A DNA stretch of 64,000 nucleotides from Prorocentrum cordatum (lineage: Eukaryota). The stretch is from NCBI GenBank assembly GCA_963575745.1, contig CAUYUJ010000002.1, positions 1,302,001 through 1,366,000 of the forward strand. Direction: 5' to 3'. The position numbers and the translations under genes are program-made. Positions 11,430 to 55,995 of this stretch are shown here, in pieces; the stretch's first letter is position 1; each line of letters starts with the position of its first letter. A model generated the notes under the pieces. The model was not told where the DNA came from and did not search any database. It saw only the letters and a list, made by a program, of their open reading frames with translations.

Positions 11430-13181
11430 TCCTTATACGGCCTGCACGGCAGGTCTTAACGACCTCCTTGCTGCCTCAAAACAAGTAGTGCCACCCCTGG
11501 CTGGATGTGGCAGCGCAACAGCAGCGTCCTTAATCCTGAAATGACGACTGTGCTCCGCAAGGTCCAACCGCCCCTCCTTCCAAGGAGTCTCTATGATGTT
11601 CCTGTGCTGCTCCGATAACCCTCCCACTGCGTGCGCTACCTTGATCGACGCTTTGAATGCGCGCAAGAAAAAATGCCCTAGTATGTCGTGACCCTAGCCA
11701 CCCGATCAGGTCTAGCACACTTATACATGGCATGGCGACAAGCAGCTTGCTAACAGGACAAAACATATTCACGCAAATGGACATTGATCCGTAAAATACC
11801 ACAGTGACATACACATCCGTACGTCTCTGCACTCGCTGAATATGCGTAGGCAAAGACCTGCAAGAATGAAGCGCCGACGAGCAGGGGTCCCCGCTTCATC
11901 CTCAAAGAAACACTGCCAGAGCCCCCATCCCTGTTCATGGGTGCTTTCCCCATGTCCCGAGCCCCCCAAATGCCCGCATCCACCAACTCCTCTTTCGCCT
12001 CCGTTTCACAGAACAAGTCCATAAGAAAGTCGGGTCTGCCGTCGCGTCTACGCGCGGCTCCGATAAAGTACTTCTCGGCATCTTCCAGCGCAAGTGGAGC
12101 CTTCAGGTCCACGAGTACCCTCCAAGCCCAAGGGTTAGCACTCGCCGTCAGCCTTCCGCCCTCCGCCATCGCCCCTTCCCCCTCCCAGCCCTTGACCCCG
12201 AAGTGCGCAGCCAACCACTGGCGGTGACGAACCGGACGTTTAGATATGGCATGCAGCCGCTACAGCCTGCAAACCCGAATTTCAACATCAAGCATGCATA
12301 GCCTCCAATGTTTCTGACGCACTCACTAGACCACGGTGCGTACATTCCCTCAGCTCCATTGTATGCCAGGCCCCTGAGAGCCTTCCGATCAATGATTGAA
12401 TCCGTACCTGCCCGAAAGAAAATGAGAAGGTCGCATCTGGCCGTCACAACCGTCATGCGATGGCTCTGGAGAACCTCTCAAAAAAAACAGCCCCGTCAAG
12501 TACTTAACTCTTGCACCTGGAAAACAACACTGTCGCATCCACCATTTCATTCAAATCACACATTGTCACAGGAACCGACCTGGAAGGACCTACGGCCAGC
12601 TCTCGAGAAAGCCACTGCGTGATAGCCCTGGCAATTCGCTTGTACGTTGGTTGCTTCTTGGTCTCCGTCACCTTCGGAGGGTGGTACTGCGCCCACATCA
12701 ATTCAAATATCCTCCATCACCGTTCTGACCCGAGCCACCAAGCACCGACCGCTGCACCCCGAACAGCCCGAACGCATGCATCGCGAAAACGTCCATGCAG
12801 AAACACAGCCACACCACACGACTTTCGAATCGGACGCTCCATCAACAAACGCCCTCGAACTCAACACCGTTGGATGCCAAACTCGCTGGCTTTCAGCTGG
12901 GTTCCCGTGATCGCCACCGCCTCCACATCAGAGAACTCGGAACATGGCATCTATGCGACCAGCACGTGTACACGCCAATAATGTATACTGCACACACTTC
13001 CATGAAGAGCCTGCGAAGCTCTGATGTGTACGCCAGAGCGGCATAAGGAACAGGCAGATACAACATAGCATCTCATTGGGCCCACCTCATCTCCCTGTGT
13101 CACCCGTTGGCCAACTGTTCAGTAAAGGAGAACATGTGCGTCAGGAGGTCTAAGCCGCCCCGTTGCTGAAGCCAGAACGGC
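11430..13181 (-). pseudogene. Degenerate, probably internally deleted LINE remnant (APE endonuclease fragments)
   Basis: Minus-strand fragments occur in APE order: EAVAITGTQ (~12938-12891), KSCGVAVFL (~12825), AQYHPP and PSRSVPVTMCDLN (12700-12545), then TDSIID. Downstream is RLTASANPWAW and Cys-rich fragments. No RT core seen. Confidence 0.55.
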
Positions 13182-13186
13182 AGCTA

Positions 13187-14590
13187 GGAGGAGGGGGAGG
13201 AGGAGGAGGAGAAGCAGGAGGAGAAGGGAGGAGGAGGAGAATGAGCAGGAGGAACACGAGGAGTAGGAGGGAGGCGGAGGAGGAGGAGGCCGAGGAGAGG
13301 AGGAGGAGGAGTTCGAAGAAATGGGGCGGGGGCGCGGCGCGTTCACCGTCTGCGCCCCGCTCCCCTCGGTACACCCGTGCTCCCACGCCTGCTCCCGCGG
13401 TCCTGCTGCTGCCCCCTCCTTGTGCCTCTTGCTGCCCCTCCTCCCGATCTTGCTCCTTCCTTCATCCCGTCCTCCCCCGCCTCGTGCCCTCCTGCTGCCT
13501 CCGCTCTCTTCTCTCCCCCCGCCCCTCCTACCCATCACCCCCCCGTTTCTCTCGTTCTCTCTCTCTCTCGGCCTCTCTTCCTCAGCTTATTTCCCTCTCT
13601 CTCTCTCAATCTCTCTCTCTCTCTCTCTGTTCCATCTCTATCCCTCGTTTTCCCTATCCTCATCCCTCCCCTCCTCCTCCTGTTCCTCCTGTCTATCCTC
13701 CTGTTCCTCATCACCCTCCCCTATGCCTCCTCCTCCTTCTCCTCCTCCTCCTTCCGAATCCCCCTCCTCCTCCTCCTCCTCCTCCTCCTCCTCCTCTTCA
13801 TCCTCCCCTCCTCCTCCATCTCATCAACACCACCGGCATCACCACCGATATCGCCATCACCGCCACCGTCATCACCATAGCTGTCAGCAGCACACGCATC
13901 GGCATCATCATCATCATCATCGTCATCATAATCGTCATCGTGATCGTCATCCGCGTCATCATCATAATCATCATCGTCGTCATCAGCATCATCATCATCA
14001 GCAGCAGCATCATCATCATCATCAATCATCATCATCATTTTCAATATCAGCATCAGCAGTATCATAATGTGCATCACCGTCATCGTCTTCAGCATCGTCA
14101 TCATTACCATCAGCATCATCATCAACAGCAGCGACGGCAGCATCATAAAATTCATCAGTACCGCCATCATCGTCACCACTATGGACACCGCCATGATATC
14201 AACAGCCACGATATCTTCGTCACCACCACCAGCACTACGCAGCGTGAACATTATCGCCATCACCATCAACAACATATCCATGTGCAACGTAATCGTGACC
14301 CTATTCTCATCATCAGCAGCAGGTGAATCACCATCATTAGTAGTAAGCATCATCATAGCCAACATCACCATCATCAACATCATCATCATCATCACCAGCC
14401 TCATCAGCATCAGCATCATAATCACAATCGGAATCATCATCATCAGCATCGTCATCATCCAGAGACTCATCATCCTTATCACCATCATCGTCATCAGCAG
14501 CAACGACATCATCAGCATCATCATCACCACCAGAATCATATTCATCATCCTCGACGCCATCATGGCCATCACTACCATGATCACCATGAT
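13187..14590. repeat. Compound low-complexity region: (GAG)n, (CT)n, (CCT)n, (CAT)n
   Basis: Direct inspection. Confidence 0.95.
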
Positions 14591-14848
14591 AACATCCCCC
14601 GTTCTCGTCCATTCTCACTCGTTTCCCATCCTTCCACCCTTGATTCTCTGGCATCCTCCTGTCACTCCTGTTCTTTCCACTTCACAAACGTCCATGTTCC
14701 TGCTCGTCCTCTGAAGCGCTCGCATGGCACTCTTCTTGTTCCCAACCATCCTGTGGTGTTGGGTCCTCGTTTTGAAGAGACGGTGCCCCGCGTTCTCCTT
14801 CCTTCCTCCCGCTGCCTCCTCCCCCCTCCCCATCATCATCATCATCAG

Positions 14849-16219
14849 CACCCATTTCGGCACACCCCTCACACGTTTCGTGGCTCCATAGGGAGCTCCA
14901 CCGAAGGCCCCAGTGCCCGCGGCCGCATGCGTCCCCCACACCCATTTCGGCACACCCCTCACACGTTTCGTGGCTCCATAGGGAGCTCCACCGAAGGCCC
15001 CAGTGCCCGCGGCCGCATGCGTCCCCCACACCCATTTCGGCACACCCCTCACACGTTTCGTGGCTCCATAGGGAGCTCCACCGAAGGCCCCAGTGCCCGC
15101 GGCCGCATGCGTCCCCCACACCCATTTCGGCACACCCCTCACACGTTTCGTGGCTCCATAGGGAGCTCCACCGAAGGCCCCAGTGCCCGCGGCCGCATGC
15201 GTCCCCCACACCCATTTCGGCACACCCCTCACACGTTTCGTGGCTCCATAGGGAGCTCCACCGAAGGCCCCAGTGCCCGCGGCCGCATGCGTCCCCCACA
15301 CCCATTTCGGCACACCCCTCACACGTTTCGTGGCTCCATAGGGAGCTCCACCGAAGGCCCCAGTGCCCGCGGCCGCATGCGTCCCCCACACCCATTTCGG
15401 CACACCCCTCACACGTTTCGTGGCTCCATAGGGAGCTCCACTCGAAGGCCCCAGTGCCCGCGGCCGCATGCGTCCCCACACCCATTTCGGCACACCCCTC
15501 ACACGTTTCGTGGCTCCATAGGGAGCTCCACCGAAGGCCCCAGTGCCCGCGCCCGCATGCGTCACCCACACCCATTTCGGCACACCCCTCACACGTTTCG
15601 TGGCTCCATAGGGAGCTCCACCGAAGGCCCCAGTGCCCGCGGCCGCATGCGTCCCCACACCCATTTCGGCACACCCCTCACACGTTTCGTGGCTCCATAG
15701 GGAGCTCCACCGAAGGCCCCAGTGCCCGCGGCCGCATGCGTCCCCCACACCCATTTCGGCACACCCCTCACACGTTTCGTGGCTCCATAGGGAGCTCCAC
15801 CGAAGGCCCCAGTGCCCGCGGCCGCATGCGTCCCCCACACCCATTTCGGCACACCCCTCACACGTTTCGTGGCTCCATAGGGAGCTCCACCGAAGGCCCC
15901 AGTGCCCGCGGCCGCATGCGTCCCCCACACCCATTTCGGCACACCCCTCACACGTTTCGTGGCTCCATAGGGAGCTCCACCGAAGGCCCCAGTGCCCGCG
16001 GCCGCATGCGTCCCCCACACCCATTTCGGCACACCCCTCACACGTTTCGTGGCTCCATCGGGAGCTCCACCGAAGGCCCCAGTGCCCGCGGCCGCATGCG
16101 TCACCCACACCCATTTCGGCACACCCCTCACACGTTTCGTGGCTCCATAGGGAGCTCCACCGAAGGCCTCAGTGCCGCCGCCCGCATGCGTCACCCCCAC
16201 CCATTTCGGCACACCCCCC
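14849..16219. repeat. 90-bp tandem array, 15 near-identical units plus a partial unit
   Basis: Unit CACCCATTTCGGCACACCCCTCACACGTTTCGTGGCTCCATAGGGAGCTCCACCGAAGGCCCCAGTGCCCGCGGCCGCATGCGTCCCCCA, starting at 14849, 14939, 15029 ... 16108. Confidence 0.98.
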
Positions 16220-16221
16220 GC

Positions 16222-16703
16222 ATTTCTCGCACGGCAGGGTCATCACCACGGTGGCGTGCCAGGGGCGCACCATGCGCGAAGGCGACGGGGCGGGGGAACG
16301 GCGCTCCGGGGGCGGCCAGACCTCCGGGGCGCGAGCAGTCCGCGGCCAGACCATCTCTCGGTCCTGTGGACTCTCGCCCTGGGCCGTCGGCTGCCCGGCG
16401 CGCTGCTCCCTCGGTCGACGTCGCCCAGGCGTGATCCTGGATTGCGGCCGCCACGAGGTAGGGAACGGCAAGAAGGAGGACGACGACTGGTGGCTGGAGC
16501 TCTACGTGCTGCTCTCGCGCGCCACGCGCCACGAGGACCTCCTGCTCATGCGGGCGCCGCGCATCGAGTTCTTCCTGGCAGGGCCGCCGCAGGGCTTGCG
16601 GAAGCAGCTGGAGCAGTTTGCGGCGCGCACGAAGCGGTGCAGGAGGGAAGCGACGGCCCTCGCCAGGGAGCTCGGCTTCACCGAGTTCATCCGCGAGGCC
16701 TGA
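16222..16703 (+). pseudogene. 3' fragment of Pif1-like (SF1B) helicase, motifs V-VI, with a 147-bp insert
   Basis: TTVACQGRTM (motif V-like) and LYVLLSRAT (motif VI). Homologous to the 33-34 kb and 38-39 kb copies. Confidence 0.88.
16282..16428 (+). other. Putative GC-AG intron with complementary ends
   Basis: GAAG|GCGACG...CGTCGCCCAG|GCGTG. Removal gives QGRTMREGVILD, collinear with uninterrupted QGRTMHRGVIVD in the 38.7-kb copy. Confidence 0.75.
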
Positions 16704-17899
16704 CCTGAGGAGCGTCTCCCCCGAGCCGCGCCTTCTCTCGACTGCCCGACTAATTGTTTGGCCTCGCGCCGCGGACGACCCGCGCGCGTCGCTGGGACCC
16801 TCTCGGGGCGACCAGCGCGCGTCGCGGGAACTCCGTGCTGCGGGGGGCCCGGCGCCTCGTTCGCCCGTCGTCGCTCTGCCCAGCGGTCAGAGACTTGCCC
16901 GCTATCAGCCAGCCAGTTAGCTAGTCAGCTCTCTCTGCTTCGCGCAGCGGACGACCCGCGCGCGTCGCTGGGACCCCGCCCGGGGCGACCAGCGCGCGTC
17001 GCGGGGACTCCGCGCTGCGCTGCGCCCGCAGCCTTGGATTTTGGAGTGCGCGGGCAAAGAGGAAGGAAAAGAAGAGCCGAAAGCGGGCGCGATCCTCGCA
17101 AGAGGCGTGCCGACATGGGCGTCGCGACGTGCGGACGCTGCCGTCGGGGTTCCCGCGGAAGCTGCCTGCGGCGGCCACGCCCAGTGTCACGTGTGTTCGG
17201 ACAGGCATGCTCGACACTTACACTAGGCGGTTCCATGATCGCATTCATGCAAATATATTCACTCGCGCGCAGACCCATTCATACTCAGATTCCCTCGCGC
17301 TCTGACTCACCCGCGTTCTTTCTCTCGTAATCAGATCTATCGTATTCCTTTGCGTTGTGTACCCCGCCACATTTCGGCACACCCCTCATGCGGTTCGTGG
17401 CCCCATAGGGAGCGCCACCGAAGAAGATACTCACAATTGCGATACTCACAACTGCATATGGTTGGGTCCTTCGCCAGGATAATTTTGACCGTGTAGGGTA
17501 CTTCTTCCGGTCATCCTCTTCTGCATCCTCCTGCTCATCCTTATAATCTTGTCGTTGGTTGATGGCATGACAGAGAAGGGTCTCGGGAAAAACGGGTAGG
17601 TGGACCTCAGGGACCCCTTCCAGACAATGCTGTTCCTCCAGAGCCGATGGTTGACGGCGCCGGGGCCCGTGAAGGGCCCCGGGAGGCAGACGACGGCACG
17701 CAGGGAGCACTCTCCCCCGAGACGTCGTCTCGTCATGGTGGCTCTTGGCCCGCTCGGTTTTCCTCCTCCCCCGTCTCCCCCACCTCCGCACCCCACCCCT
17801 ACCCTCTCTACTACAGCTCCCCCTCTTTCTCCTCCACCCCCCCTCCGCTCCTCCTCCTCCTCCTCCTCCTCCTCCAGTTCCTCCTCCTCCTCCCTCCTC

Positions 17900-32611: not shown

Positions 32612-35226
32612 TTTTCCCAACCATACTGCGGCGTTGGGCCCTCGTTTTGAAGAGACAGCGCACCGCGCCCCACCTCTACAATTACTCAATATGAATACTA
32701 CTTTCCCTCTTGCCCTGATGACGTGTCGGGCGTTCGCCCCCACGCCCCCCCCCACGTTTCGTGGCCCCACAGGGAGCTCCACCGAAGGCCCCAGCGGCTG
32801 CGCCCACATGCCGCCCCCGCACCCATTTCGGCACACCCCTCGCACGCTTCGCGGCCCCATAGAGAGATCCACCGAAGGCCTCAGCGGCAGGGCCCGCACG
32901 CCGCCCCCGCACCCATGTCGGCACGCCCCCTCGCGCGCTTCGTGGCCCCATAGGGAGCGCCACCAAAGGCGCCTGTGGCTGCGTCCGCATGCCTCCCCAC
33001 CATCCATGTCGGCGCACCCCTCATCCCTCGCACGTTTCGCGGCCCCTGGCCCCGCGTCGAGCTCCGCCGAAGGCCCCAGCGGAGACTTTCGCCCCCCGTG
33101 GGCCTCTTGAAACAGTGCGCGAACGCTCTGCCGGTGAGAGAGACCCGCCACAGGCCCTGTGTAATGTAATTCACGCAATATCGCTTGCTCTAATGTTTTT
33201 TGTTCAACGGAGCTGCCACCTGGCCGGATGCCTATCGTGATCCACCTGGGGGACTTCTTGCAGCTGAAGCCGATAGGAGGCAAGGTGTCGCGCATCTCCA
33301 TATTCGAGGAACTCGCGGCGGTGCGCACCAACCTCGCTCCAGAGTACCAGGCCGCGATGAAGTTCTTCTGCAACGCACCGCCGTGCTTCGTGCTCCAGGC
33401 GCCCAGCCGCTTCAAAGACCCGAAGCTTCGGGATATGATGGCGTTCTTGCGCAGGCCGGGGAAGCAGGCCCCTCCGGCCACCCGGGCCACGTGGAACGCC
33501 ATGCAGCTGAAACTGGAGGATCGCCGGCTCGGGGAGGGAAGGTTCCAGAGCGGCCACATGATTGGGCCCTACTGGGGCATCGTGGCGCGGCGGATGAACA
33601 TGCGTGCCCAGCGGGGCGCGGACGTCCTGAAGAAGCCCCTCTTCCTCGCGCAGGCCGCCGACAGGTCTGCTCCGACGATGAGCGTCAAGGACGCCGCCAA
33701 GATGATGAACTGCGCCTGCCCGAAGAACACTGGCGGCGTGCGCGGACTCCCCCCGGTGCACGCGGGCACGCGGATCCAGCTCCTGGAGGCGCTCGACCTC
33801 ACGAACGGCCCCGTCACGGATGCAGAGGGGCAGATCGCGCACATCGTCGTGGGCCCGCGGGAGAGGGGCAACGCCGACAAGGCCGAGAGACACGGGGAAA
33901 AGAGGATCCATCTGAAGCGCTTGCCGCTGAGCGCCGCTGGGATTCTGGGCGCGCATGGACAGGCGCGCGAGCGCGCCCTTCGTGGACGACCTGAAGCGCC
34001 GCGACGACAGCCTCACGGGAGACCTCGCGGGCCCGCTGGTGTTCATCGAGCCCCGTGCGTCGGGGCCGTTCACCTTCCGCGCCTCGAAGGTCACCCGGGC
34101 GGGCCCCCCGCTTTCGCACGGCACGGTCGTCGCCGCGGCGGCGTGCCAGGGGCGCGCCGCGCGGGAAGGCGGCGGGGCGGGGGAACAGCGCTCTGGGGCA
34201 GTCTACGGCCAGACCTGCTGGGCGGGAGTAGTCCGCAGCCAGACCTTCTCTCGGCCCCGTGGACTCTCGCCCTGGGCCGTCGGCTGTCTGGCGCGCTGCC
34301 CCCTCGGCCGACGTCGCCCGGGCGTGGCCCTGGGCGGCGGCCGCCGCGAGGTGGGGGGTGGCAAGATGGAGGACGACGACTGGTGGCTGGAGCTCCTGCT
34401 CACGCGGGCGCCGCGCATCGAGTTCTTCCTGGCAGGGCCGCCAGAGGGCACGCGGAAGCAGCTGGATCAGTTTGCGGCGCGCGTAAAGCGGCGCAGGAGG
34501 GAGGCGACAGCCCTCGCCAGGGAGCGAGGATTCACCGCGTTTATCCACGAGGCTTGACCTGAGGAGCGGCCCGTCCGAGCCCCGCCTTCTCTCGACGGTC
34601 TGACTGTTCGGCCTCGCGCCGCGGGCGACCCGCGCGCGTCGCTGGGGCCCTCTCGGGGCGACCAGCGCGCGTCGCGGGAATCCCGCGCTGCGCTCTGCCC
34701 AGGGCCTCGCTCGCCCCCGTCGTCGCTCTGCCCAGCGGCCACAGCCTTGCTCGCTATCAGCTAGCCAGCTCGCTCTCTGTGCTCCGCGGAGCGGGCGACC
34801 CGCGCGCGTCGCCGAGGCCCTTTCGGGCCGACCGGCGCGAGTCGCGGGGGCCCCGCGCGGCCCCGCGCCCGCGGCCGCGGACATCGGCGCGCGCGGGCAG
34901 AGAGGGGGAAAAATAACGGGAAGGAAGCGGGCGCGATCCTCGTGAGGACCCTGAGGAGCGCGCCGACATGGTCGTCGACATTCATGCGCGTAGACTGATA
35001 AGCACGCAGACTCGTTCACAATCAGACGCGCTCGCGCTCAGGCTCACCCGTTCTCAGTCTCTCGCACTCAGACTGATCGTCTGTGTTCGCGCGGCGTACC
35101 CCGCCGCGCACTTCGGCGCGCCACTCGCGCGGCTCGTGGCCCCGTAAGGAGCGCGGGCGAAGATTATGTGCACATTGGCGGTATTCACAGCTGCATTTGG
35201 TTGGGTCCTTCGCCAGGCAATTTTTT
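32612..35226 (+). mobile_element. Helentron/Helitron2-like element H2
   Basis: 5' end is TTTT-CCCAACCAT...GTTGGG (32612-32638). About 4 degenerate 90-bp units follow (32740-33100), then the helicase and a 3' region homologous to H1. 3' end is TGGTTGGG (35198-35205), CCT-tcgcc-AGG, then a T-run. Confidence 0.8.
33228..34557 (+). pseudogene. Pif1-like helicase, motif III to C-terminus, frameshifted
   Basis: IHLGDFLQLKPI (Pif1 motif III), SRFKD, VHAGTRIQLLEALDLTNG and ACQGR. Frameshift near 33940. Motif VI is deleted. The 153-bp intron homologue at 34169-34321 has its acceptor mutated to GG. Confidence 0.9.
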
Positions 35227-38415: not shown

Positions 38416-39090
38416 CTAGTGCAATAAGCGATCGAGACCTAGCTCGCGCGCCAGCTTCTCTGCCTCCTTCCTGCATGTTGCCGTGCGGGAACTGAACTTC
38501 CGCAGTTTCTCTGCAAGGTCTGCCGGTGGGCCGCGGGCGAGAAAGTCAAGGCAGGGGTCGCACACCATCAGTAAGTTGTCTATCGTCGTCGCCCTGGGCA
38601 GCATCACGTAGACGCGCAGCCATAGTGCGTCCAGGTCGTTCGCATCCTTGCACCCTGCGTCAACAATGACTCCGCGGTGCATGGTGCGGCCCTGGCAGGC
38701 AGTGGACGTCAGGACCTCGGCGTGGAAGATGACGAAGCCAGCGCGCGTGACCTTGTACTTGCGGAGGTCGAACGGGCTCGAGCTCGGTGGCTCGATGAAG
38801 ACGAGGCCCGCAACGTTCGCAGCGTCGATGCTGTCATCGAGCTCCTTGAGCTTCTTTCCGCAGGGGCCACCCTTGTACTTGTCCATGCGCACCCACACGC
38901 CGTACGGCAGGTACCGCAGGTACGCCCGACCTCCCTCGGCCTTCGCTCTCTCCACCACGCCCTCATCCTTCGGGTTGATGGCCACGTGCACGACCTCGCC
39001 CTCGGCGTCCTTGACGAGCCCCTTGTCGAGGTCCAGGTGCTCCAGCAGTCGTATGCGCATGCCCACGTGCAGCGGCTGCATCCCGTGAAT
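38416..39090 (-). pseudogene. 3' half of Pif1-like helicase, intronless, open to the stop codon
   Basis: LHVGMRIRLLEHLDLDKGLVKDAEGEV, LTSTACQGRTM and VYVMLPRAT. The C-terminus LARELG is shared with H1. Confidence 0.9.
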
Positions 39091-39961
39091 GGGCCCCTCA
39101 GCAGCCCTCGAAAGTGGCGACAGCTCCACAAATCGCAGCCCCTCAGGGATTGCGAGGTCTAATCTGAGTCTGCGGTGAGTACCCACTGTGCTGGGCCCCT
39201 CAGCAGCCCTCGAGCTTCACAGATCGCAGCCCCCCAGGGATGGCGAGGTCTAATTTGAGTCTGCGGTGAGTACCCACTGTGCTGGGCCCCATCAGCAGCC
39301 CTCGAAAGTGGCGACAATTTCACAGATCGCAGCCCCCCAAGGACGGCGAGGTCTAATCTGAATCTGCGGTGAGTACCCAGTGTGCTGGACCCCTCAGCAG
39401 CCCTCGAAAGTGGCGACAGTTTCGCATATCGCAGCCCCCCAGGGATGGCGAGATCTAATTTGAGTCTGCGGTGAGTACCCACTGTGCTGGGCTCCTCAGC
39501 AGCCCTCAAAAGTGGCGACAGTTCCACAGATCGCAGCCCCCCAAGGATGGCGAGGTCTAATCTGAGTCTGCGGTGAGTACCCACTGTGCTGGGCCCCTCA
39601 GCAGCCCTCGAAAGTGGCGACAGCTTCACAGATCGCAGCCCCACAGGGATGGCGAGGTCTAATTTGAGTCTGCGGTGAGTACCCACTGTGCTGTGCCCCT
39701 CAGCAGCCCTCGAAAGTGGCGACAGTTTCACAGATCGCAACCCCCCAGGGATGGCGAGGTCTAATCTGAGTCTGCGGTGAGTACCCACTGTGCTGGACCC
39801 CTCACCAGCCCTCGAAAGTGGCGACAGTTTCACGGATCGCAGCCCCCCAGCGATGGCGAGGTCTAATATGAAGCCCCGTAAGACGTCACTCTGCTCGCCC
39901 CACAGCAGCCCTCGAAAGTGGCGACAGTTTCACAGATCGCAGCCACCTAAAGATGGCGAGG
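39091..39961. repeat. 102-bp tandem array, ~8.5 units
   Basis: GCGAG(G/A)TCTAAT recurs at 39152, 39243, 39346, 39448, 39550, 39652, 39754 and 39856. Confidence 0.97.
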
Positions 39962-41243
39962 TGGAGGGAAGAGAGGAGCAAGGGAGGAGAGGAGGAGGGA
40001 AGATAGGAGAAGGGAAGCAAGAGAGGGGAGAGGAGGAGGGAAGAGAGGTGGAGGGAGGCGGGAGGAAGGAGTGGAGACCGCAATGCTCTATTCAAAACGA
40101 GTGCCCAACGCAGGAGGGTTGGGAAAAATGTGTAATGCTTCGCTGGTGGATGGCAACTTGTTTTCAATGTGTGGCTCTCGCCCGAGCACCGTGCACATTC
40201 GTCTTCACACATATTGCAAGAGCTTCACGGATCGAGGGCGGCTCCTTCCTCAAAATGTTAATCGAACGTGGTTTTCCTTCAGCATCGCGTACATGCGATT
40301 TGAACCGTTGCAATAGTTTGCCGGATTCCAATGGCTAGGATCCAAGAGACGGTGCTTCGGAAGGATGCAGGACTGTCATGTCAGGGCGCAGCAGTTGCTA
40401 TCACTCGCGGTGTTGGAGTCCCACGGACGGCGAATTTGCACGATTCAGGATTGTCCAGGCGCAAAGGAAATGTGATGCGTGGCGTTGACGTCCCAGGACT
40501 GGTGCTGGCACGCTTCAAGATTTTCACACGGTTGTCTGCCAACGGGGAACTTCCCCCAGTGGATGTGACTTCTTGTAGGGGCCTGTGGAAAAAGAAGCGT
40601 GAAGGGAGGGTTTCGCGCAACATCGTTGAGGAGTCTTGGGTTTGCACTGGTCCTCCTCCTCCTGCACAACGACGGCGACGACCTCCTCCTGGCGGGGCGG
40701 CGCCTGCTTGGTGCCCGGGAAGAGCAAAGGGTCGGCCATGACCGGGGGGAGGCGGGGGGGCGGTCCTCCCCTCCGCCGCGAGCCCCGCGCGCCTCGAGAC
40801 GCACCCCTCCCTTCAAGCCACGGCGAGAGGGATCTGAGGGCTGCTTTCGGCCTCCTGGGGGGAGGAGGGAGAGGGTGCAGTAGGATGGTGGAGGCAAGGG
40901 GGTTTAAGAGCAATGAGGAGGCTGAGGAGGAGGAACAAGACGGAGGGATGGGTAGGCGGAGGGAGAGGACGGACAGGGCAGGGAGAAGGGGAAGGAGGTG
41001 GAGGAGAAGGAGGACGGAGAGGATGAGGGGGAGGAGAGAGACCCAAGGGAGGAGGAGCTTCGGAGAAGGCCAAGTATCCCCGAGAAAGCTCCGTCATCGA
41101 TCATATTCGAATCCACGCACGGTGCGGGAGGCCCGCTGCGAGACGCGCAACTCGGCCGAAACCCGCCGTCTCGCAATCCGAGTGCCCACATCCGATTGAC
41201 CCTCTCCGACTCGTGCGAAGGACGCAGTGCGGGCGCTGTCGGG

Positions 41244-46982: not shown

Positions 46983-47740
46983 TCTCCCAACCACCCTGTG
47001 GTGTTAGGCCCTCGTTCTGAGGAGACAGACAGTGCCCGGCGTTCCTTCCTTCTTTCCTCCTTGTCCCCCTCCTCCCTCCTCCCTCATCCACCATGCGCCT
47101 CCCGCGCCCAGGAGAACGGTTCGGGGCTGCATGGGGGCTCAACGAAAGCCCCATCGGCTGCATTCGCATGCGGTTCCCCATCCAGAACTGCGTTTCGCGT
47201 CTCCAAAGAGGTCCCCATCGAAAGCCCCAATGGCTGCACTCGCATGGGTTCCCAGGACAGCGCTACGTGGCCCCGTAGGGAGCCCCACCGAGGGCCCCAG
47301 TGGCTGCACTCACATGCGGTTCCTCCACCCAAGACAGCGAGCGCAACGTGGCCCCGTCGGGAGCTCCACCGAAGACCCTGGTGGCTGCACTCGCGTGCGG
47401 TTCCCCCACGCGTGTCGTGGCCCCGTCTGGAGCTCCGCTGAAAGCCACAGTGGCTGCACTCGCGTGCTCTTCCCCCACTCAGACAAGCGTTCCGTGGCTC
47501 TGTATGGAGTCTCCACCGAAGGCCCCATTGGCTGCACTCGCATGCGGTCCCCCCACCCAGGGCAGCGCTACGCGGCCCCATAGGGAGCTCCACCGAAGGC
47601 CTCAGTGGCTGCACTCGCATGCGGCTCCGCTTCTCAGGTCAGCGTTTCGTGGCCTCATCGGGAGCTCCACCGAAGCTCCCAGTGGCTACACTCGCATGCG
47701 GGTCCCCCACCAGGGAAAGCCCTTCGTGGCCCCATGCGGA
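46983..47740 (+). mobile_element. Helentron-like H4: 5' end plus degenerate ~90-bp array, 3' truncated
   Basis: CCCAACCACCCTGTGGTGTTAGGCCCTCGTTCTGAGGAGAC leader at 46986, then GGAGCTCCACCGAAGGCCCCAGTGGC-type units. Confidence 0.7.
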
Positions 47741-47905: not shown

Positions 47906-48350
47906 AAAATTAGCCTGGCAATGGACCCAACCATATGCAGGTGTGGGTTCCGCAATGTTGAATCTCGTCTTCGATGGAGCTCCCGATGGGTCCACGAAAC
48001 GCTGTCCTGGGTGGGAGAACCGTACGCGAATGCAGCCATTGGGGCTTTCGGTGGACCTCCCGATTGAGCCGAGAAACGCGGTCCTGGGCAGGGGAACCGC
48101 ATGCGAGTGCAGCCACCAGGGTTTTCGGTGGAGCTCCCGGCCACGAACCGCTGTCCTGGGCGGAGGAGCAAGTGCAGCCACTGGAGCCTTCGGTGGAGCT
48201 CCCTACGGGGCCAGGAAACGCTGTCCGGGGTGGGGGGACCGCATGCGAGTGCGGTCACTGGGGCCCTCGGTGGGGCATCCGATAGGAACGCAAAGCGCTG
48301 TCCTGGGTGGGGGAACTGCGTGCGCGTGCAGCCGCTGGGGCCTTCGGCAG
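47906..48350 (-). mobile_element. Helentron-like H5: 3' end plus array, 5' truncated
   Basis: Reverse complement reads CTGCATATGGTTGGGTCCATTGCCAGGCTAATTTT, matching the H1 3' end. It is preceded by ~90-bp units. Confidence 0.72.
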
Positions 48351-49143: not shown

Positions 49144-50333
49144 AAATTTGCCTGGAGATAGCCCTCACCACATGCAGCTGTGGGTTCCGCAATTGTGAAT
49201 ATTTCATCTTCGATGGGGCTCCACACGGGTCCACGAAGCGCTGTCCTGGGTGGGGGAACCGCATGCGAGTGCAGCCACCGGGGCCTTCGGTGGAGCTCCC
49301 GATCGAGCCGAGAAACGCGGCCCTGGGCAAAGGAACCGCATGCGAGTGCAGCCATTGGGGCCTTGGGTGGAGCTCCCTACGGGGCCACGAAACGCTGTCC
49401 TGGGTGGGGGGGACCGCATCCGAGTACAGCCACAAGGGCCTTCGGCGGAATCCCCGACTGAGCCGAAAAACTTGGTCCTGGATGGGGGGACCGCATGCGA
49501 GTGCAGCCACTTGGCCTTCGATGGAGTTTCCGATTGAGCCGAGGAACGCGGTCCTGGGCGGAGGGAACCGCATGCGAGTGCAGCCACTGGGGCCTCGTCG
49601 GAGCTCCCGACGGGGCCACGAAGCGCTGTCCTGGGCGGAGGGAGCCGCATGCATGTCCGGCCACATGGGCCTTCGGCGGAACTCTCGATGAGGCCACGAA
49701 GCGCTGGCGTGAGTGTTGGAACCGCATGCGAGTGCAGCCACAGGGGCCTTCTGCGGGGCTCCCCATGGGGCCAAGAAACGCTGTCCTGGGTCGGAGGTCC
49801 GCGTGCTAGTGCAGCCACCGGAGCCTTCGGTGGAGCCCATATATGGGGCCACGTAGCGCTGTCCTGGGTGGTAGAACCGCATGCGAATGCAGCCACCAGG
49901 GCCTTCGGTGGGGCTCCCCATGGGGCCACGAAATGCGGTCGTGGGTGGGGACACGCCTGCGAATGCAACCACTGGGGCCGTCGGTGGAGCTCCCGACGGG
50001 GCCACGAGGGGAGGCGATCGCATGCGAGTGCAGCCGCTCGGGCCCTAGGTGGAGCTCCTTATTCGGGCTACGGAACGCCGGCCTGAGTGGGGGAACCCCA
50101 TGCTACTGCAGCCGTTGGGGCTCTCGGTAGCAACCCCTATGGCGCCACGAAACGCAGTGCAGCCACTGGGGCCTTCGGCGGAGACCCCTACAGAGCCCCG
50201 AAACGTTCTCCAGTGTGCGGGGGACGCATGGTTGAAAAGGGAGGAGGGAGAAGGGGGCGAGGCGGTGAGGAGGAAGGAACGCGGGGCACCCTTTTTGAAA
50301 CGAGAACCTATAAAGCCACAAGATGGTTGAGAG
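49144..50333 (-). mobile_element. Helentron-like H6: non-coding element with both ends and an internal ~90-bp array
   Basis: Degenerate 3' end at 49144-49180. About 11 degenerate units. The 5' leader (reverse complement of GAAACGAG...CCACAAGATGGTTGAG) is at 50298-50331. Confidence 0.7.
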
Positions 50334-51503: not shown

Positions 51504-52697
51504 GGCTCATAGGGCTCACAGGGCTCAAAGGGCATATAGGGCTCATGAGCTCGTAGGGCTCCGAGGGTACATAGGGATTATAGGGTTCAGACGGCTCATA
51601 GGCCTCATAGGGCTCCAAGGACTCATAAGGCTCAGAGGGCTCAGAGTGCTCATAGGGCTCATAGGGCTCATAGGGCTCATAGAGCTCATAGGGTTCATAG
51701 GGCTCATAGGGCTCATAGGGCTCATAGGGCTCGTAGAGTTCATGTGCCTCATAGGGCCATTAGGCCTCATGCGGCTCATGGGTCTTACAGGGGTCGTAGA
51801 GCTGAGAGGGCTCATAAGGGTCATAGGGCTCATCGCGCTCATAGCGCTCATGGGGCTCATAAGGTTCATGGGGACCTTGAGGCTCATAGGGCTCATCGGA
51901 CTCATGGGTCTCATAGGGCGCATAGGGCTTACAGGGCACATGGTACTCATAGGATTCATAGGGCTCATAGGGCTCATGAAGCTCATAGGGCTCATAAAGT
52001 TCATAGGTCTCACAGGGCTCAGAGGGCACAGGGGGCTCAATTGACTCATAGGGCTCACAGGGCTCACTCACAAGGCTCAGAGAGCTCAGAAGGCTCGAAG
52101 GGCTTATAGGGCTCAAAGGCCTCACAGGGCTCATAGGGCTCATAGTGCTCACACGGCTCATAGGGCTCGGTTGGCTCGAAGGGTTTATAGGGCTCAAAGG
52201 CCTTACAGGGCTCATAGTGCTCATAATGCTCACAGGGCTCACAAGGCTCTCAGGGCTCAGTGGGCTCGTGGGGCACATGGGGCTCAAAGGGCTCATAGGG
52301 CTCAGTGGGCTCAGAAGGCTCTTCGTGTTCGTAGGGCTCATAGGGCTCATAGTAGTGATGGTGGTCATAGGGCTCATAATGCTCACAGCACTCATGGGGC
52401 TCAGAGGGCTCAAGGGGCTAGAACGCCTCATAGGACTCATATGGCTCATAAGGCTAAGAGGGTCATAGGGATCACAGGGCTCGTAAGGTTCATAGGGCTC
52501 ATAGGGCTCATAGAGCTCATAGAGCTCATAGGGCTCATAGGGCTTATAGGGCACATTGGATTCATAGGCTCATAGGGCTCACAGGGCTCATAGGGCTCAC
52601 AGGACAGGGCTTACAGGGCGCAGAGGGCTTCTAGGGCTCAAAAGCCTAATGGTGCTCATAGGGCTCATAATGCGCATAGGGCTCTAAGGCCTCATAG
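51504..52697. repeat. 9-bp minisatellite (AGGGCTCAT)n, degenerate
   Basis: Direct inspection; explains the SPM/YEP/GLI ORFs. Confidence 0.97.
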
Positions 52698-53639: not shown

Positions 53640-55995
53640 GGACGCCCAAGATGGCCCAAGACTGCTCCAAGAGCGAAAAGGCGAGAAAGCACAAAACATT
53701 GATTTTCCTTAGGTTTTGGAAGGATTTTGGCCTCTTGGGGGGGCCCAAGAGGCGATCCGAGGCACTCTAGAGGGGCGAGGCTAATTGAGGCTCCCCCCTT
53801 CTTTGATATATATTCCCAACATGGCCCCAAGAGCGCCCCGAAGGCTCCCAAGAGCGCCCCAAGAGCGCCCCAAGAGCGCCCCAAGAGGGCCCCAAGAGGC
53901 GCCCAAGATGCCTCCAAGAGGCTCCCAAGAGACTCCCAAGAGGCCCCAAGAGAATCCAATATGGCCCAAGACGGCTCCAAGAGCGAAAAGGCGAGAAAGC
54001 AAAAAACAATGATTTTCTGTAGGTTTTGGACGGGTTTTGGCTTCTTGGGGGGGGGCCCAAGAGGCGACTCGAGGCACTCTAGAGGGGCGGGGCTAATTAA
54101 AGCTCCACCCTTCTTTGATAGATCTCCTCCAAGATGGCGCCATGAGCACCCCGAAGGCACCCAAGAGCGCCCCAAGAGCGCCCCAAGAGAACCCCAAGAG
54201 GCTCCAAGAGACGCCAAGAGGCGCCCAAGAGGCCTCCAAAAGGCTCCCAAGAGACCCCCAAGAGGCCCCAAGAGGCTCCCAAGATGGCCCAAGAAGGCTC
54301 CAAGAGCGAAAATGCGAGAAAGCAAAAAACATTGATTTTCCATAGGTTTTGTAAGGATTTTGGCCTCTTGGGGAGCCCAAGAGGCGACTCGAGGCACTCT
54401 AGAGGGGCAGCGCTAATTGGGGACCCCCCCTTCTTTGATAGATCTCCTCCAAGATGGCCCCAAGAGCGCCTCGAAGGCTCCCAAGAGCGCCCCAAGAGCG
54501 TCCCAAGAGGGCCCCAAGAGGCCCCAAAAGGCTCCCAAGAGGCCTCCAAGAGGCCCCCAAGAGACCCCCAAGAGGCCGCAAGAGGCTCCCCGAGATACGC
54601 AAGAGGCCCCCGGGAACGCCAAGAGGCCCCAAAGACGGCCCAAGAGGCCCCCAAGCTCGCCATTGTCCTCCTCCTCCTCCTCTTTTTCTTCCTCCTCCCT
54701 CCTCCCCCTCCCCCTCCTCCTCCTCCTCCTCCTCCTCCTTTTCCTTTTCCTCCTTCTCGTCCTCCTCGTCCTCGCAGTCCTCCATATCCTCCTCCTTATC
54801 CTCCTTCTCCTCCTCCGCTTGCTCCTCCTCGCGCTCCTCCTCCTACTCCTCCTCTTCCTCCTCCTACTCCGACGACGACGGCTCCTCCTACATCCTCCCC
54901 CTCTTGGGGGATATGGCGGCTCACCCCGCCCTTTGTTCTTCTGCATGCTCCCCCGCTCGCCCCAAGAGGGGCCCCAAGAAACTCCAAGAAGCGCCCCAGA
55001 GGCTTCCAGGATGATCCCAAGAGACTCCCAAGATGCCAAAATCCATCCAAAACTCTGCAAATCAACGTTTTTGGCTTTCTCGCTTTTTCGCTTCCAATGG
55101 CCATCCGAGGCCTGAAGATGGCTCCAAGATGGCCCAAGAAGGCACCAAGAGAAGCCCAAGAGAGCTCCAAGACGGCCCCAAGAGCGCCCAGGAGCGCTCC
55201 AAGATTGCCCCAAGAGCGCCCCAAGAGCGCCCCAAGAAGGCCCCAAGAGGCCCCAAGAGGCCCCCAAGATGCCCCCAAGAGGCTCCCAAGAGATCCCCAA
55301 GAGGCCTAAATATGCTCCCAAGATGGCCCAAGACGGCTCCAAGAGCGAAAAGGCGAGAAAGCAAAAAACATTGATTTTCCTTAGGTTTTGGACGGAATTT
55401 GGCCTCTAGGAAGGCCCAAGAGGCGATTCGAGGCACTCTAGAGGGGCAACGCTAATAAGCAACCCCCCCTTCTTTGATAGATCTCCTCCAAGATGGCCCC
55501 AAGAGCGCCCCGAAAGCTCCCAAGAGCGCCCCAAGAGCGCCCCAAGAGGCCCCAAGAGGCCCCCAAGAGGCCTCCAAGAGGCCTCCAAGAGACTCCCAAA
55601 AGGCCACAAGAAGCTCCCCGAGATACGCAAGAGGCCTCCGGGACCGCCAAGAGGCCCCAAAGACGGCCCAAGAGGCCCCCAAGCTCGCCATTGTCCTCCT
55701 CCTCCTCCTCTTTTTCTCCCTCCTCCCTCCTCCCCCTCCCCCTCCTCCGCCTCCTCCTTCTCCTCCTCCTCCTCCTCCTTCTCGTCCTCCTCGTCCTCGC
55801 CCTCCTCCATCTCCTCCTCCTCATCTTCCTCCTCCTCCTCCTCCTCCTCCTCCCCCTCCCCCTCCTCCTCCTGCTCCTCCTCCTGCTCCTCGTCTTCCTC
55901 CTCCTACTCCGACGACGACGACTCCTCCTACATCCTCCCCCTCTTGGGGCGTATGGCGGCTCAACCCGCTCTTTGTTCTTCTGCATGCTCCCCCG
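53640..55995. repeat. Hierarchical satellite: 11-bp CCCAAGAG(GCC) units inside ~310-320-bp units inside a ~1.04-kb duplication
   Basis: ATGGCCCAAGA...GAGCGAAAA...GGCACTCTAGAGGGGC block at ~53650, ~53960, ~54283 and ~55322. 54281-54955 is repeated at 55320-55995. Confidence 0.93.

What the first reader, a model, noticed from the sequence alone, without database searches (positions are those of the whole stretch)
16280..16431. Introner-like GC-AG intron with base-paired ends inside a transposon helicase, present in two copies and absent in the third
Seen: a 147-bp insert (16282-16428) splits QGRTMRE-G-VILD. H2 has the homologous 153-bp insert (34169-34321), while H3 reads QGRTMHRGVIVD without it. 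The insert starts GC and ends CAG. It is bounded by a 5-bp direct repeat AGGCG (16280-16284 and 16427-16431). Its ends are complementary: GGCGACG/CGTCGCC is perfect, and CGGGGGAACGGCGC pairs imperfectly with GCGCTGCTCCCTCG. Established: GC donors are common in dinoflagellates, and Introner elements create introns, often with inverted ends and short direct repeats. Inference: a transposon-derived intron was gained within another transposon. Alternatively, H3 lost the intron via an RNA intermediate. Both inserts are multiples of 3 and stop-free, so retention would also keep the frame.
Basis: partly seen in the sequence, partly recalled or inferred. Interest (0 to 1): 0.75.

Follow-up and report, generated by a model that had tools for sequence, protein, structure and literature searches.

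The report
Hairpin insert, probable intron, in helicase repeat
A 147-base, hairpin-forming insert splits the helicase gene of a very abundant repeat in a GC-rich marine protist and looks like a transposon-made GC-AG intron of a kind already described, but no spliced RNA and no copy at any other site was found.

Summary
H1 carries 147 bp (16282-16428) and H2 a homologous 153 bp (34169-34321) between QGRTMRE and GVILD. H3 (minus strand, ~38694) is uninterrupted. The insert starts GC, ends CAG and sits between AGGCG repeats.

Corrections:
- H1 and H2 are 79%-identical duplicates of one another and dead fragments, so they are not two independent cases.
- H2's acceptor reads CGG, not CAG.
- The paired ends belong to one hairpin of 57-58 pairs spanning the whole insert. 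It is exceptional only as sense-strand RNA (z -5.1 sense, -1.3 antisense).

Among relatives, 17 of 20 metagenome loci and 11 database proteins read the site uninterrupted. All insert-bearing copies form one nested clade, which fits a single gain. After that gain the downstream exon stayed under purifying selection (8 of 10 H1/L017 differences synonymous). The insert itself took frame-breaking indels.

Best reading (about 0.5): a hairpin-forming, MITE-like (small non-autonomous transposon) insertion that is spliced as a phase-1 GC-AG intron, with both splice sites in the duplicated AGGC, as described for dinoflagellate introner-like elements.

Not shown:
- No contig skips the insert, and two RNA-library contigs retain it.
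- No copy was found outside this helicase site, so Introner-family membership is unproven.
- The host taxon is undetermined.

Interest is low to moderate.

The parts
16221..16281 (+). H1 upstream exon remnant (HFSHGRVITTVACQGRTMRE + first G of the Gly codon). It directly abuts the 90-bp array.
   Evidence: Translation. tblastn of full-length relatives covers only residues ~530-617 of 623.
16280..16284 (+). Left copy of the direct repeat AGGCG. The proposed 5' splice site AG|GC lies inside it.
   Evidence: Sequence. Empty sites of relatives.
16282..16428 (+). The 147-nt insert: GC...CAG, 78% GC. It forms one imperfect hairpin of 57 pairs (7 of them G.U) as sense RNA. Proposed phase-1 intron.
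16427..16431 (+). Right copy of the direct repeat AGGCG. The proposed 3' splice site AG|G lies inside it.
   Evidence: Sequence.
16429..16703 (+). H1 downstream exon (G)VILDCGRHE...FIREA plus stop. 96.3% identical to L017, with 8 of 10 differences synonymous.
16704..17124 (+). 3' flank shared with H2 and L017. It contains a GC-rich motif repeated at about 16771-16835 and 16947-17012.
   Evidence: Depth peaks.
14849..16217 (+). 90-bp tandem array (15.2 copies, 98% matches) that truncates H1.
33222..34562 (+). H2: a longer helicase pseudogene (residues ~237-618 of a 623-aa relative) with a frameshift near 33930 and a 39-bp deletion in the last exon.
34169..34321 (+). H2 copy of the insert (153 nt). 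88% identical to H1's in aligned columns, with a 6-nt insertion. The acceptor AG is mutated to GG.
38422..39096 (-). H3: a distant, 5'-truncated paralogue that reads TACQGRTMHRGVIVD without the insert.

Best explanation
A roughly 140-150-nt hairpin-forming element of the MITE (small non-autonomous transposon) or introner type inserted once at an AGGC(G) site. The site lies in the C-terminal domain of a divergent PIF1-like helicase gene carried by a very high-copy repeat family of a GC-rich marine protist.

In members that still make protein, the insert is most likely removed as a phase-1 GC-AG spliceosomal intron. The donor (AG|GC) lies in the left copy of the duplicated target and the acceptor (AG|G) in the right copy. 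The sense-strand RNA hairpin brings the two sites together. The subfamily then multiplied and carried the insert with it.

The copies in this window (H1, H2) are dead fragments that merely inherit it. H3 belongs to a lineage that never had it.

Shown: the insert and its boundaries, the hairpin and its strand specificity, the single nested clade, and selection on the downstream exon after the gain.

Inferred: origin by transposition, splicing, and a role of the hairpin in splicing.
For: 1. Precise interruption of a conserved site.
- 17 of 20 metagenome loci read QGRTMR[DES]GV[IVL] without a break. One locus (L017) has the insert and 2 do not cover the site.
- 11 database proteins also read through.

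2. Boundaries.
- AAG|GCGACG...CCCAG|GCG is kept in H1 and L017.
- The residues E/Q-G-D at the 5' side and P-G-V at the 3' side, seen in P0004, P0005, P0016, P0031, P0032, P0033 and P0045, are compatible with the same bases.
- The pattern AG|GH...AG|GH, with both splice sites taken from an AGGH target duplication, is described for Polarella ILE classes 12-14.

3. Rarity. The direct repeat plus inverted repeat occurs at 1 of 7,621 GC-rich positions.

4. Hairpin, sense against antisense RNA z-scores:
- H1: -5.10 against -1.29.
- L017: -4.86 against -2.32.
- H2: -2.70 against -1.19.
- H1 as DNA: -1.75.
- H1 has 7 G.U pairs against 1 A.C mismatch (one-sided binomial p 0.035).

5. Single origin. 7 insert rows plus 10 rows whose ORF begins exactly at the site form one clade (SH-aLRT branch support 80) nested among 23 insert-less rows. 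One change suffices.

6. Selection after the gain. Between H1 and L017, the downstream exon has 10 differences in 272 nt. Eight are third-position and synonymous (binomial p 0.0034).

7. No coding constraint on the insert.
- H1 against L017: 11 substitutions in 142 aligned nt, 5 of 11 at third positions, plus a 5-nt deletion that breaks the frame.
- P0033 has an internal stretch read in another frame. P0045's 517-aa ORF runs into the insert out of frame and stops at the TGA just past it.

8. The rest of the gene is uninterrupted. P0033 residues 1-441 match L017 in one frame.
Against: 1. No spliced form was seen. No joint across the insert appears in 1 DNA-type run and 3 RNA runs. X15 contig 14 (16225-16304) and contig 15 (16375-16691) retain the 5' and 3' boundaries at depth 3-4. 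DNA carry-over or pre-mRNA cannot be excluded.

2. The 6 insert-clade proteins that cover the upstream exon (P0004, P0005, P0031, P0032, P0033, P0045) all read into the insert. None shows the joined sequence.

3. The insert is in frame and open in H1, H2, P0005 and the intact 598-aa ORF P0033, so retention could also give a protein.

4. The contrast between insert and exon is not significant on its own: Fisher p 0.18 for codon position and 0.10 for substitution rate.

5. Three related copies give no usable covariation. Shuffles reach the observed score in 249 of 500.

6. The 7 G.U pairs all have U in the C-rich 3' arm. Strand-biased C-to-T mutation could therefore mimic RNA-level selection.

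7. The perfect terminal inverted repeat includes bases of the direct repeat. The split into target duplication and element is therefore not clean.
Confidence: 0.5

Rival explanations
1. The insert is a retained, translated insertion. It is never spliced, and functional copies carry a 47-51-residue Gly/Arg/Ala/Pro-rich loop between the QGRTMREG motif and the VILD strand.
For: - The insert is in frame and open in H1 (147 nt), H2 (153 nt), P0005 and the intact 598-aa ORF P0033, where it is 47 residues, about 141 nt.
- Two RNA-library contigs retain the boundaries and none skips them.
- The AlphaFold model gives the stretch pLDDT confidence of 21-28, as expected for a disordered loop. The model as a whole is poor (mean 51.8).
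Against: - The frame is broken in L017 (142 nt), P0045 and P0004.
- The peptide is not conserved. P0033 has an internal stretch in another frame, and 6 of 11 H1/L017 substitutions are non-synonymous.
- A -99 kcal/mol hairpin inside a coding region would hinder translation (inference).
- All 28 uninterrupted relatives keep the motif and the strand adjacent.
Confidence: 0.2
2. The insert is a plain disruptive insertion, or a local palindromic repair product, in a copy that was already dead or non-autonomous. That copy was then amplified passively, for example together with the 90-bp array. It is neither spliced nor translated.
For: - H1, H2 and L017 all carry further lesions: truncation, frameshifts and a deletion.
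- The array-to-helicase junction of H1 recurs in P0004, P0005 and P0019, so the truncated composite is itself repeated.
- The family's depth in X1 is in the thousands.
- No spliced RNA was seen.
Against: - 8 of 10 differences between H1 and L017 in the downstream exon are synonymous (p 0.0034). All of them arose after the insert was gained.
- Insert-clade members as far apart as 72% identity (P0016) keep the conserved motifs.
- P0033 is an intact 598-aa ORF, and P0045 is intact for 517 aa up to the insert.
Confidence: 0.15
3. The insert is an old intron of the helicase gene. Insert-less lineages, H3 among them, lost it, for example by recombination with a reverse-transcribed mRNA.
For: - The three window copies are 5'-truncated at different points with a common 3' end, which would suit RNA-mediated copying.
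- If the root lay next to the insert clade, one loss would be as parsimonious as one gain.
Against: - The 23 insert-less rows are paraphyletic around a single insert clade when the tree is rooted on H3.
- The long uninterrupted ORFs come from loci of differing GC content, 0.46-0.56.
- A direct repeat and a full-length hairpin are marks of insertion, not of an old intron.
Confidence: 0.05
4. The insert is a member of a true multi-copy Introner family that also sits in unrelated genes of the same genome.
For: Structure only: a direct repeat of the AGGH type, paired ends and a GC donor, as in published ILE classes.
Against: - A profile of the three copies finds nothing else in the window or in 20 loci.
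- blastn finds only H1 and H2.
- X1 depth over the insert (5,300-6,800) is below exon A (7,170) and exon B (8,750-15,000) at >= 90% likeness. None of the 15 loose ends listed lies at its boundaries (179 more were not shown).
- The viral-contig pattern scan gave 0 hits.
- All these searches are shallow. Copies below about 85% identity elsewhere in the genome would be missed.
Confidence: 0.12

Closest known systems
Introner-like elements (ILEs) of dinoflagellates, especially Polarella glacialis classes 12-14 (Roy et al. 2020 preprint, doi 10.1101/2020.10.14.339549; parts 1-2 of 4 of the text read)
   Same: - A short target duplication of the type AGGH (4 nt) or NAGGH/NNAGG (5 nt) supplies both splice sites.
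- GC donors are frequent and apparently favoured.
- Exonic AG lies before the intron and GH after it.
- Inverted repeats lie at the intron ends.
   Different: - Those elements are defined by hundreds to thousands of similar copies in different genes. Here every copy sits at one site of one repeated gene.
- The duplicated word AGGCG (AGGH plus one base) is not one of the registers listed.
- Splicing is not shown.
- The host is not shown to be a dinoflagellate.
Introner elements of Amoebophrya and the pattern definition reused for Prorocentrum cordatum (Farhat et al. 2021, PMC7789003, passages; Dougan et al. preprint 10.1101/2022.07.25.501386, passages)
   Same: - Direct repeats of 3-5 nt overlap the exon/intron boundaries.
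- Inverted repeats at the two intron ends form a hairpin that joins the exon boundaries.
- There is no internal transposase, as in MITEs.
   Different: - The definition asks for inverted repeats of 8-20 nt. The perfect one here is 7 nt and continues as an imperfect full-length stem.
- Many Amoebophrya elements have non-canonical splice sites, whereas this one fits GC-AG.
MITEs and foldback DNA transposons (general knowledge; summarised in PMC7789003, and PMC9860276)
   Same: Small size, no coding capacity, a flanking short direct repeat and the ability to fold into a hairpin.
   Different: - No family of copies was found and no cognate transposase identified.
- The hairpin is significant only as sense RNA. 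As DNA z is -1.75, and as antisense RNA -1.29.
- The terminal pairing uses bases of the direct repeat.
GC-AG introns of Emiliania huxleyi (Feldmesser et al. 2014, PMC4028052, passages)
   Same: - A GC-rich marine alga in which 56% of 241 curated junctions are GC-AG and intron retention is frequent.
- This would fit both the GC donor and the retained RNA contigs.
   Different: - No hairpin-plus-direct-repeat introns are described in the passages read.
- A library search for 'introner' with 'Emiliania' listed 7 of 8 papers, none of them on such elements judging by title and abstract.
- The host's identity is open.

Membership tests
Spliceosomal intron | Absent from mature mRNA, shown by an exon-exon junction in RNA that is not present in DNA | tested here: inconclusive
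   Read laying on 3 RNA runs and 1 DNA-type run found no joint across 16282-16428. Two low-depth contigs of X15 retain a boundary each. These are contigs, not raw reads, and DNA carry-over is possible.
Spliceosomal intron | G[TC]...AG boundaries whose removal restores the reading frame of uninterrupted homologues | tested here: met
   H1 and L017 read AAG|GC...CAG|GCG. Removal gives ...MREGVILD..., as in 17 loci and 11 proteins. H2 has lost the AG.
Spliceosomal intron | Flanking exons under coding constraint while the insert is free to vary in sequence and length | tested here: met
   In the downstream exon, 8 of 10 differences are synonymous (p 0.0034). The insert has a 5-nt deletion and 6 of 11 non-synonymous changes. 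Insert lengths are 141, 142, 147 and 153 nt. The direct contrast is not significant.
Introner / introner-like element in the strict sense (Gozashti 2022; Roy 2020) | Many similar copies forming introns at unrelated loci of one genome | tested here: not met
   The insert was found only at this helicase site: window, 20 metagenome loci, no excess depth in X1. The whole genome was not available, so this is a shallow test.
Introner / introner-like element in the strict sense | Target-site duplication flanking the insert, present once in the empty site | tested here: met
   AGGCG lies on both sides. Empty sites read GA[AC]GGCGT, with AGGCG once in L016.
Introner / introner-like element in the strict sense | Terminal inverted repeats | tested here: inconclusive
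   A 7-nt perfect inverted repeat continues into a 57-58-pair imperfect stem. It overlaps the direct repeat and is not significant as DNA (z -1.75).
Introner element by pattern (Farhat 2021 / Dougan 2022: inverted repeat of 8-20 nt and direct repeat of 3-5 nt within 30 nt of the intron ends) | Direct repeat of 3-5 nt and inverted repeat of 8-20 nt at the ends of an annotated intron | tested here: inconclusive
   The direct repeat is 5 nt, which meets the rule. The perfect inverted repeat is 7 nt, one short, and is longer only with bulges. Intron status is not shown.
PIF1-like SF1B helicase (the host gene) | Match to PIF1 or related P-loop profiles, with helicase motifs | tested here: inconclusive
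   - The window fragments give no Pfam hit.
- A full-length relative (L003 ORF) scores AAA_19 27.1 bits (cutoff 25.1) and PIF1 22.9 bits (cutoff 25.9).
- The PDB search gives PIF1 5o6b at E 0.0041.
- Atlas neighbours carry Pif1_2B_dom or UvrD_C_2 in 16-33% of their members, which is a lead only.
Helitron (Rep-helicase transposon) | An N-terminal Rep/HUH endonuclease domain fused to the helicase | tested here: not met
   No such Pfam family at E <= 0.1 in P0044 (1,036 aa), P0036 (848 aa) or P0033, nor at E <= 1 in the L003, L007 and L001 ORFs.

The most novel reading that the evidence does not exclude
The hairpin is maintained by selection on the sense transcript of the repeat itself. A structured, self-pairing intron was captured by a mobile helicase-bearing element, which then acted as its vehicle and spread one intron to hundreds or thousands of loci. 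The roughly 57-bp RNA duplex may also serve as a Dicer-type substrate through which the host, or the element, tunes expression of the family. If the host is a haptophyte rather than a dinoflagellate, this would also extend hairpin-plus-direct-repeat introns to a lineage where the library searches made here turned up none.
Probability: 0.1. Interest if true: 0.55.

Novelty: new member of a known kind. Interest (0 to 1): 0.3.

Why it matters
If splicing is confirmed, this is a clean single-event example of intron creation by a hairpin element whose duplicated target supplies both splice sites. The gain can be dated on a family tree with many empty-site relatives. The intron's later fate (retention, decay, loss of the AG in H2) can be followed across many paralogues.

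It would also show that a mobile or amplified gene family can multiply a new intron without the intron being mobile itself. That matters for genome-wide 'introner' counts based on sequence similarity between introns.

As it stands, the mechanism is already described for dinoflagellates. The copies in this window are dead fragments, so the finding mainly adds an example.

Tried and rejected
- Whole-genome search for further copies: no genome is held for this window.
- Protein search with the insert's in-frame peptide (P0003 residues 22-69): 21 candidates, none at E <= 0.01. Even the known insert-bearing P0004 and P0005 did not pass, so the test was insensitive.
- Representative-library search with the frame-3 peptide of the insert: one hit (P0046, E 1.5e-4), a repetitive unrelated protein. 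It covers one frame of six, so it is also insensitive.
- Pattern scan of viral contigs with a 28-nt insert word: 0 hits.
- Earlier-findings look-ups by place, sequence and words: nothing.
- RNA evidence: X16 covers only 16511-16751 and X18 only the tandem array, so neither bears on splicing.
- Ungapped inverted-repeat finder: 0 pairs at seed 9, and one 21-nt, 71% pair at seed 6. Bulges shift the register.
- Covariation on 3 copies: no better than shuffles.
- Rfam: no family on 16000-17500 at E <= 1 and none in the whole window at gathering score. No tRNA either.
- Host identification: no match to the dinoflagellate spliced leader (sequence recalled from memory) with up to 3 mismatches. Pfam on 26 large window ORFs gave only an endonuclease domain of a LINE-like ORF. 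Atlas taxa were uninformative.
- Structure prediction of P0033 with a 17-row alignment: mean pLDDT 51.8, pTM 0.38. This is too poor for a fold search, so none was run.
- The Fisher test printed used wrong counts.
- L019 (homology starts at residue 143, AT-richer upstream) and L020 (weak partial match) do not cover the site.
Full report
**1. What is in the sequence**

At 16260-16440 the plus strand reads ...CAGGGGCGCACCATGCGCGAAG|GCGACGG...GTCGCCCAG|GCGTGATCCTGGAT.... In frame this gives ...ACQGRTMRE-G[49 residues]-VILDCGRHE....
- The 147 nt at 16282-16428 begin GC and end CAG.
- AGGCG stands at 16280-16284 and 16427-16431.
- GGCGACG (16281-16287) is the exact complement of CGTCGCC (16419-16425).
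- blastn of the insert against the window finds only itself and 34169-34319, at 85.4% over 151 columns.
- On the minus strand near 38694 a third helicase fragment reads TACQGRTMHRGVIVD without interruption.

**2. Corrections to the description**

H1 and H2 are not independent.
- 16214-17124 matches 34104-34977 at 78.8% over 929 columns.
- The match continues at 17242-17486 against 34979-35224.
- Both are preceded by the same 90-bp tandem array, at 14849-16217 (15 copies) and 32746-33022 (3 copies).

All three window copies are 5'-truncated fragments.
- Against a 623-aa relative, H1 covers residues ~530-617, H2 ~237-618 and H3 ~407-616.
- H2 also changes frame near 33930 and lacks 39 bp of the last exon.
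- H2's insert ends CGG, so the AG is lost.

**3. The host gene**

The window fragments hit no Pfam family. Longer relatives do better.
- The 713-aa ORF of L003 scores AAA_19 27.1 bits (cutoff 25.1) and PIF1 22.9 bits (below its cutoff of 25.9).
- Its best solved relative is PIF1 helicase 5o6b, E 0.0041.
- Atlas neighbours of H3 carry Pif1_2B_dom or UvrD_C_2 in a minority of members, which is a lead only.
- No Rep or transposase domain was found in relatives of up to 1,036 aa.

'Transposon' therefore rests on copy number. In run X1, at >= 90% likeness, summed contig depth over the helicase part is 5,000-15,000. Over the adjacent array it is 1.6-3.1 million.

The host organism is not identified.
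- The window is 53-70% GC.
- It holds a LINE-like ORF with an endonuclease domain as its only Pfam hit among 26 ORFs tested.
- It has no tRNA and no Rfam family.
- It has no relic of the dinoflagellate spliced leader, a motif I recalled from memory.
- GC donors do not decide the matter. They are common in dinoflagellates and form 56% of 241 curated junctions in Emiliania huxleyi.

**4. Is the insert more than chance?**

- A 5-nt direct repeat at 147-nt spacing together with a 7-nt terminal inverted repeat occurs at 1 of 7,621 positions with GC >= 0.70. That position is the insert itself. It occurs at 3 of 63,577 positions overall.
- The complementarity is not confined to the ends. The whole insert folds into one imperfect hairpin of 57 pairs: -98.8 kcal/mol, z -5.10, and 0 of 200 dinucleotide shuffles fold as well.
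- 0 of 1,299 windows of 147 nt across the 64 kb are as stable. After a linear GC correction the residual is only -2.1 SD, because the insert is 78% GC.
- The same hairpin (58 consensus pairs) is predicted for all three DNA copies.

**5. The hairpin is strand-specific**

| Copy | Sense RNA z | Antisense RNA z |
|---|---|---|
| H1 | -5.10 | -1.29 |
| L017 | -4.86 | -2.32 |
| H2 | -2.70 | -1.19 |

As single-stranded DNA, H1 gives z -1.75.
- The reason is wobble pairing. H1 has 7 G.U pairs against 1 A.C single mismatch (one-sided binomial p 0.035).
- A decaying DNA palindrome should lose pairing equally on both strands. The asymmetry therefore suggests pairing that matters in the sense transcript.
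- The caveat is that all seven U lie in the C-rich 3' arm. Strand-biased C-to-T change could give the same picture.
- Covariation among three related copies is uninformative: shuffles reach the observed score in 249 of 500.

**6. Relatives**

A search with H1's 160-aa read-through translation gave 29 proteins. I examined 28 of them; P0024 was left out.
- 11 read the site uninterrupted: P0017, 18, 20, 21, 22, 23, 25, 26, 28, 29 and 30.
- 6 carry insert-like sequence at the same place. P0004 and P0005 carry it nearly whole, P0016 and P0027 the 3' part, and P0031 and P0032 the 5' part.
- 10 (P0006-P0015) are ORFs that begin exactly at the V/I of (G)VILD.
- The remaining protein, P0019, lacks the GVILD site (array-derived sequence runs into exon B) and was dropped from the tree.

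A scan of metagenome contigs gave 20 loci.
- 17 read through the site.
- One, L017, is 94% identical to H1 and has a 142-nt copy of the insert.
- Two do not cover the site.
- Empty sites read CGCGA[AC]GGCGTC, so AGGCG occurs once (in L016), as expected for a target duplication.

A second search for longer proteins (13 hits) added two more.
- P0033 is an intact 598-aa ORF that reads through a 47-residue, in-frame version of the insert. The middle of that version is in another frame than H1's.
- P0045 is a 517-aa ORF that enters the insert, shifts frame and stops at the TGA just beyond it.
This is an inference.
- Outside the insert the gene is uninterrupted: P0033 residues 1-441 match L017 in a single frame.

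**7. Gain or loss**

I built a tree of the last ~90 residues from 40 rows.
- Left out for lack of a usable last exon or coverage of the site: L006, L011, L012, L019, L020, P0019, P0024 and P0028-32.
- All 7 insert rows and all 10 'ORF starts at the site' rows fall in one clade (SH-aLRT branch support 80).
- That clade is nested among 23 insert-less rows, and one change of state suffices.
- The root was set on H3, a long branch. With the root outside the insert clade this is a single gain.

**8. Selection after the gain**

H1 and L017 both carry the insert, so every difference between them is younger than the gain.
- The downstream exon has 10 differences in 272 nt. Eight are third-position and synonymous (binomial p 0.0034).
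- The insert has 11 substitutions in 142 aligned nt, 5 at third positions and 6 non-synonymous in H1's frame, plus a 5-nt deletion.
- The direct contrasts are not significant: p 0.18 for codon position and p 0.10 for rate.
- The L017-type variants at 16415, 16442 and 16460 are also frequent among X1's contigs (30-41 contigs each). Both subtypes therefore coexist in one organism.
- Insert-clade members down to 72% identity (P0016) keep the conserved motifs.

The lineage carrying the insert went on making a constrained C-terminal domain. That requires either removal of the insert or a tolerated in-frame loop.

**9. RNA**

Laying 1 DNA-type and 3 RNA runs on 16100-17130 at >= 90% likeness showed no joint across the insert in any run.
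- X15, an oligo-dT RNA library, has contig 14 over 16225-16304 and contig 15 over 16375-16691. Each crosses one boundary unspliced, at depth 3-4.
- X16 covers only the last exon and X18 only the array.
- These are assembled contigs, the family is extremely abundant in DNA, and intron retention is common in at least one candidate host.
- This counts as weak evidence against efficient splicing and no evidence for it.

**10. Other loci**

Nothing suggests a dispersed family.
- A profile of the three copies finds nothing else in the window or the 20 loci.
- X1 depth over the insert (5,300-6,800) is below that of exon A (7,170) and exon B (8,750-15,000).
- None of the 15 loose ends listed lies at the insert's boundaries, though 179 more were not shown.
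- Peptide and pattern searches found nothing but were insensitive.

**11. Comparison with what is known**

- Roy et al. (preprint; parts 1-2 of 4 read) describe dinoflagellate introner-like elements with terminal inverted repeats and 3-8-nt target duplications.
- Their classes 12-14 take both splice sites from an AGGH or NAGGH duplication.
- They also report a general AG|GH...AG|GH signature of dinoflagellate introns and a preference for GC donors.
- Farhat et al. (passages) define Amoebophrya introner elements by 8-20-nt inverted repeats at the intron ends plus 3-5-nt direct repeats over the boundaries, forming a hairpin that joins the exons.
- Dougan et al. reuse that pattern for Prorocentrum cordatum (passages).
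- Gozashti et al. note target duplications in 49 of 130 and terminal inverted repeats in 72 of 177 Introner families (passage).

The insert works like these elements on every structural count. I do not file it as an Introner, because the defining multi-locus family was looked for and not found, and because splicing is unproven.

**12. Verdict**

| Reading | Confidence |
|---|---|
| Single insertion of a hairpin-forming element, since spliced as a phase-1 GC-AG intron in functional members; H1 and H2 are dead carriers | about 0.5 |
| Translated in-frame loop | 0.2 |
| Passively amplified disruptive insertion | 0.15 |
| Member of a dispersed Introner family | 0.12 |
| Old intron lost elsewhere | 0.05 |

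This is a new member of a known kind. The sense-strand specificity of a full-length hairpin and the clean single-gain history are the parts worth following up.

Noticed in passing
window 14849-16217; also 32746-33022, 47225-47735, 47969-48347, 49208-50007: A 90-bp tandem repeat (15 copies, 98% matches) abuts H1. Related 77/90/155-bp arrays occur four more times, two of them in the opposite orientation. In run X1 its summed depth is 1.6-3.1 million, and contigs of all three RNA libraries contain it. The same array-to-helicase junction as in H1 appears in proteins P0004, P0005 and P0019, so the truncated composite is itself repeated.
   Followed up: partly
window 39216-39962: H3 is also cut off at its 5' side by a tandem array, but of a different 102-bp unit (7.3 copies, 90% matches). 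All three helicase fragments in the window are thus 5'-truncated at different points by arrays and keep a common 3' end.
   Followed up: no
window 16771-16835 and 16947-17012: The 3' flank of the helicase holds two copies of a GC-rich, partly palindromic motif of about 60 nt. X1 depth peaks there (22,500 and 27,200 against 5,000-10,000 nearby), and X1 contigs join the two copies (skips of 210 and 35 nt).
   Followed up: no
proteins P0028, P0029, P0030 (relatives, no DNA held): These insert-less relatives all end right after DDDWW(L/P). This may mark a second interruption, about 20 codons downstream of the H1 site, in another subfamily.
   Followed up: no
window 2993-6253 (+): A 1,087-codon open frame with an Endonuclease/Exonuclease/phosphatase domain (27.4 bits, cutoff 24.5), as in LINE-type retrotransposons. 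It was the only Pfam hit among 26 large ORFs tested.
   Followed up: no
window 8458-8557: A run of 100 N, which is an assembly gap.
   Followed up: no
window 51504-52697, 53823-55683, 59142-59690, 9548-10793: Long arrays of short units: 9-bp GGCTCATAG x133, 11-bp CCAAGAGGCCC-type units, 5-bp CTTAG x107, and (TCA)n x414. Together with the repeats above, they make the window almost gene-free.
   Followed up: no
L001-L016 (metagenome loci): Uninterrupted ORFs of up to 713 codons of the same helicase family occur on contigs of lower GC (0.46-0.56). The family is therefore widespread in other marine organisms without any insert.
   Followed up: partly
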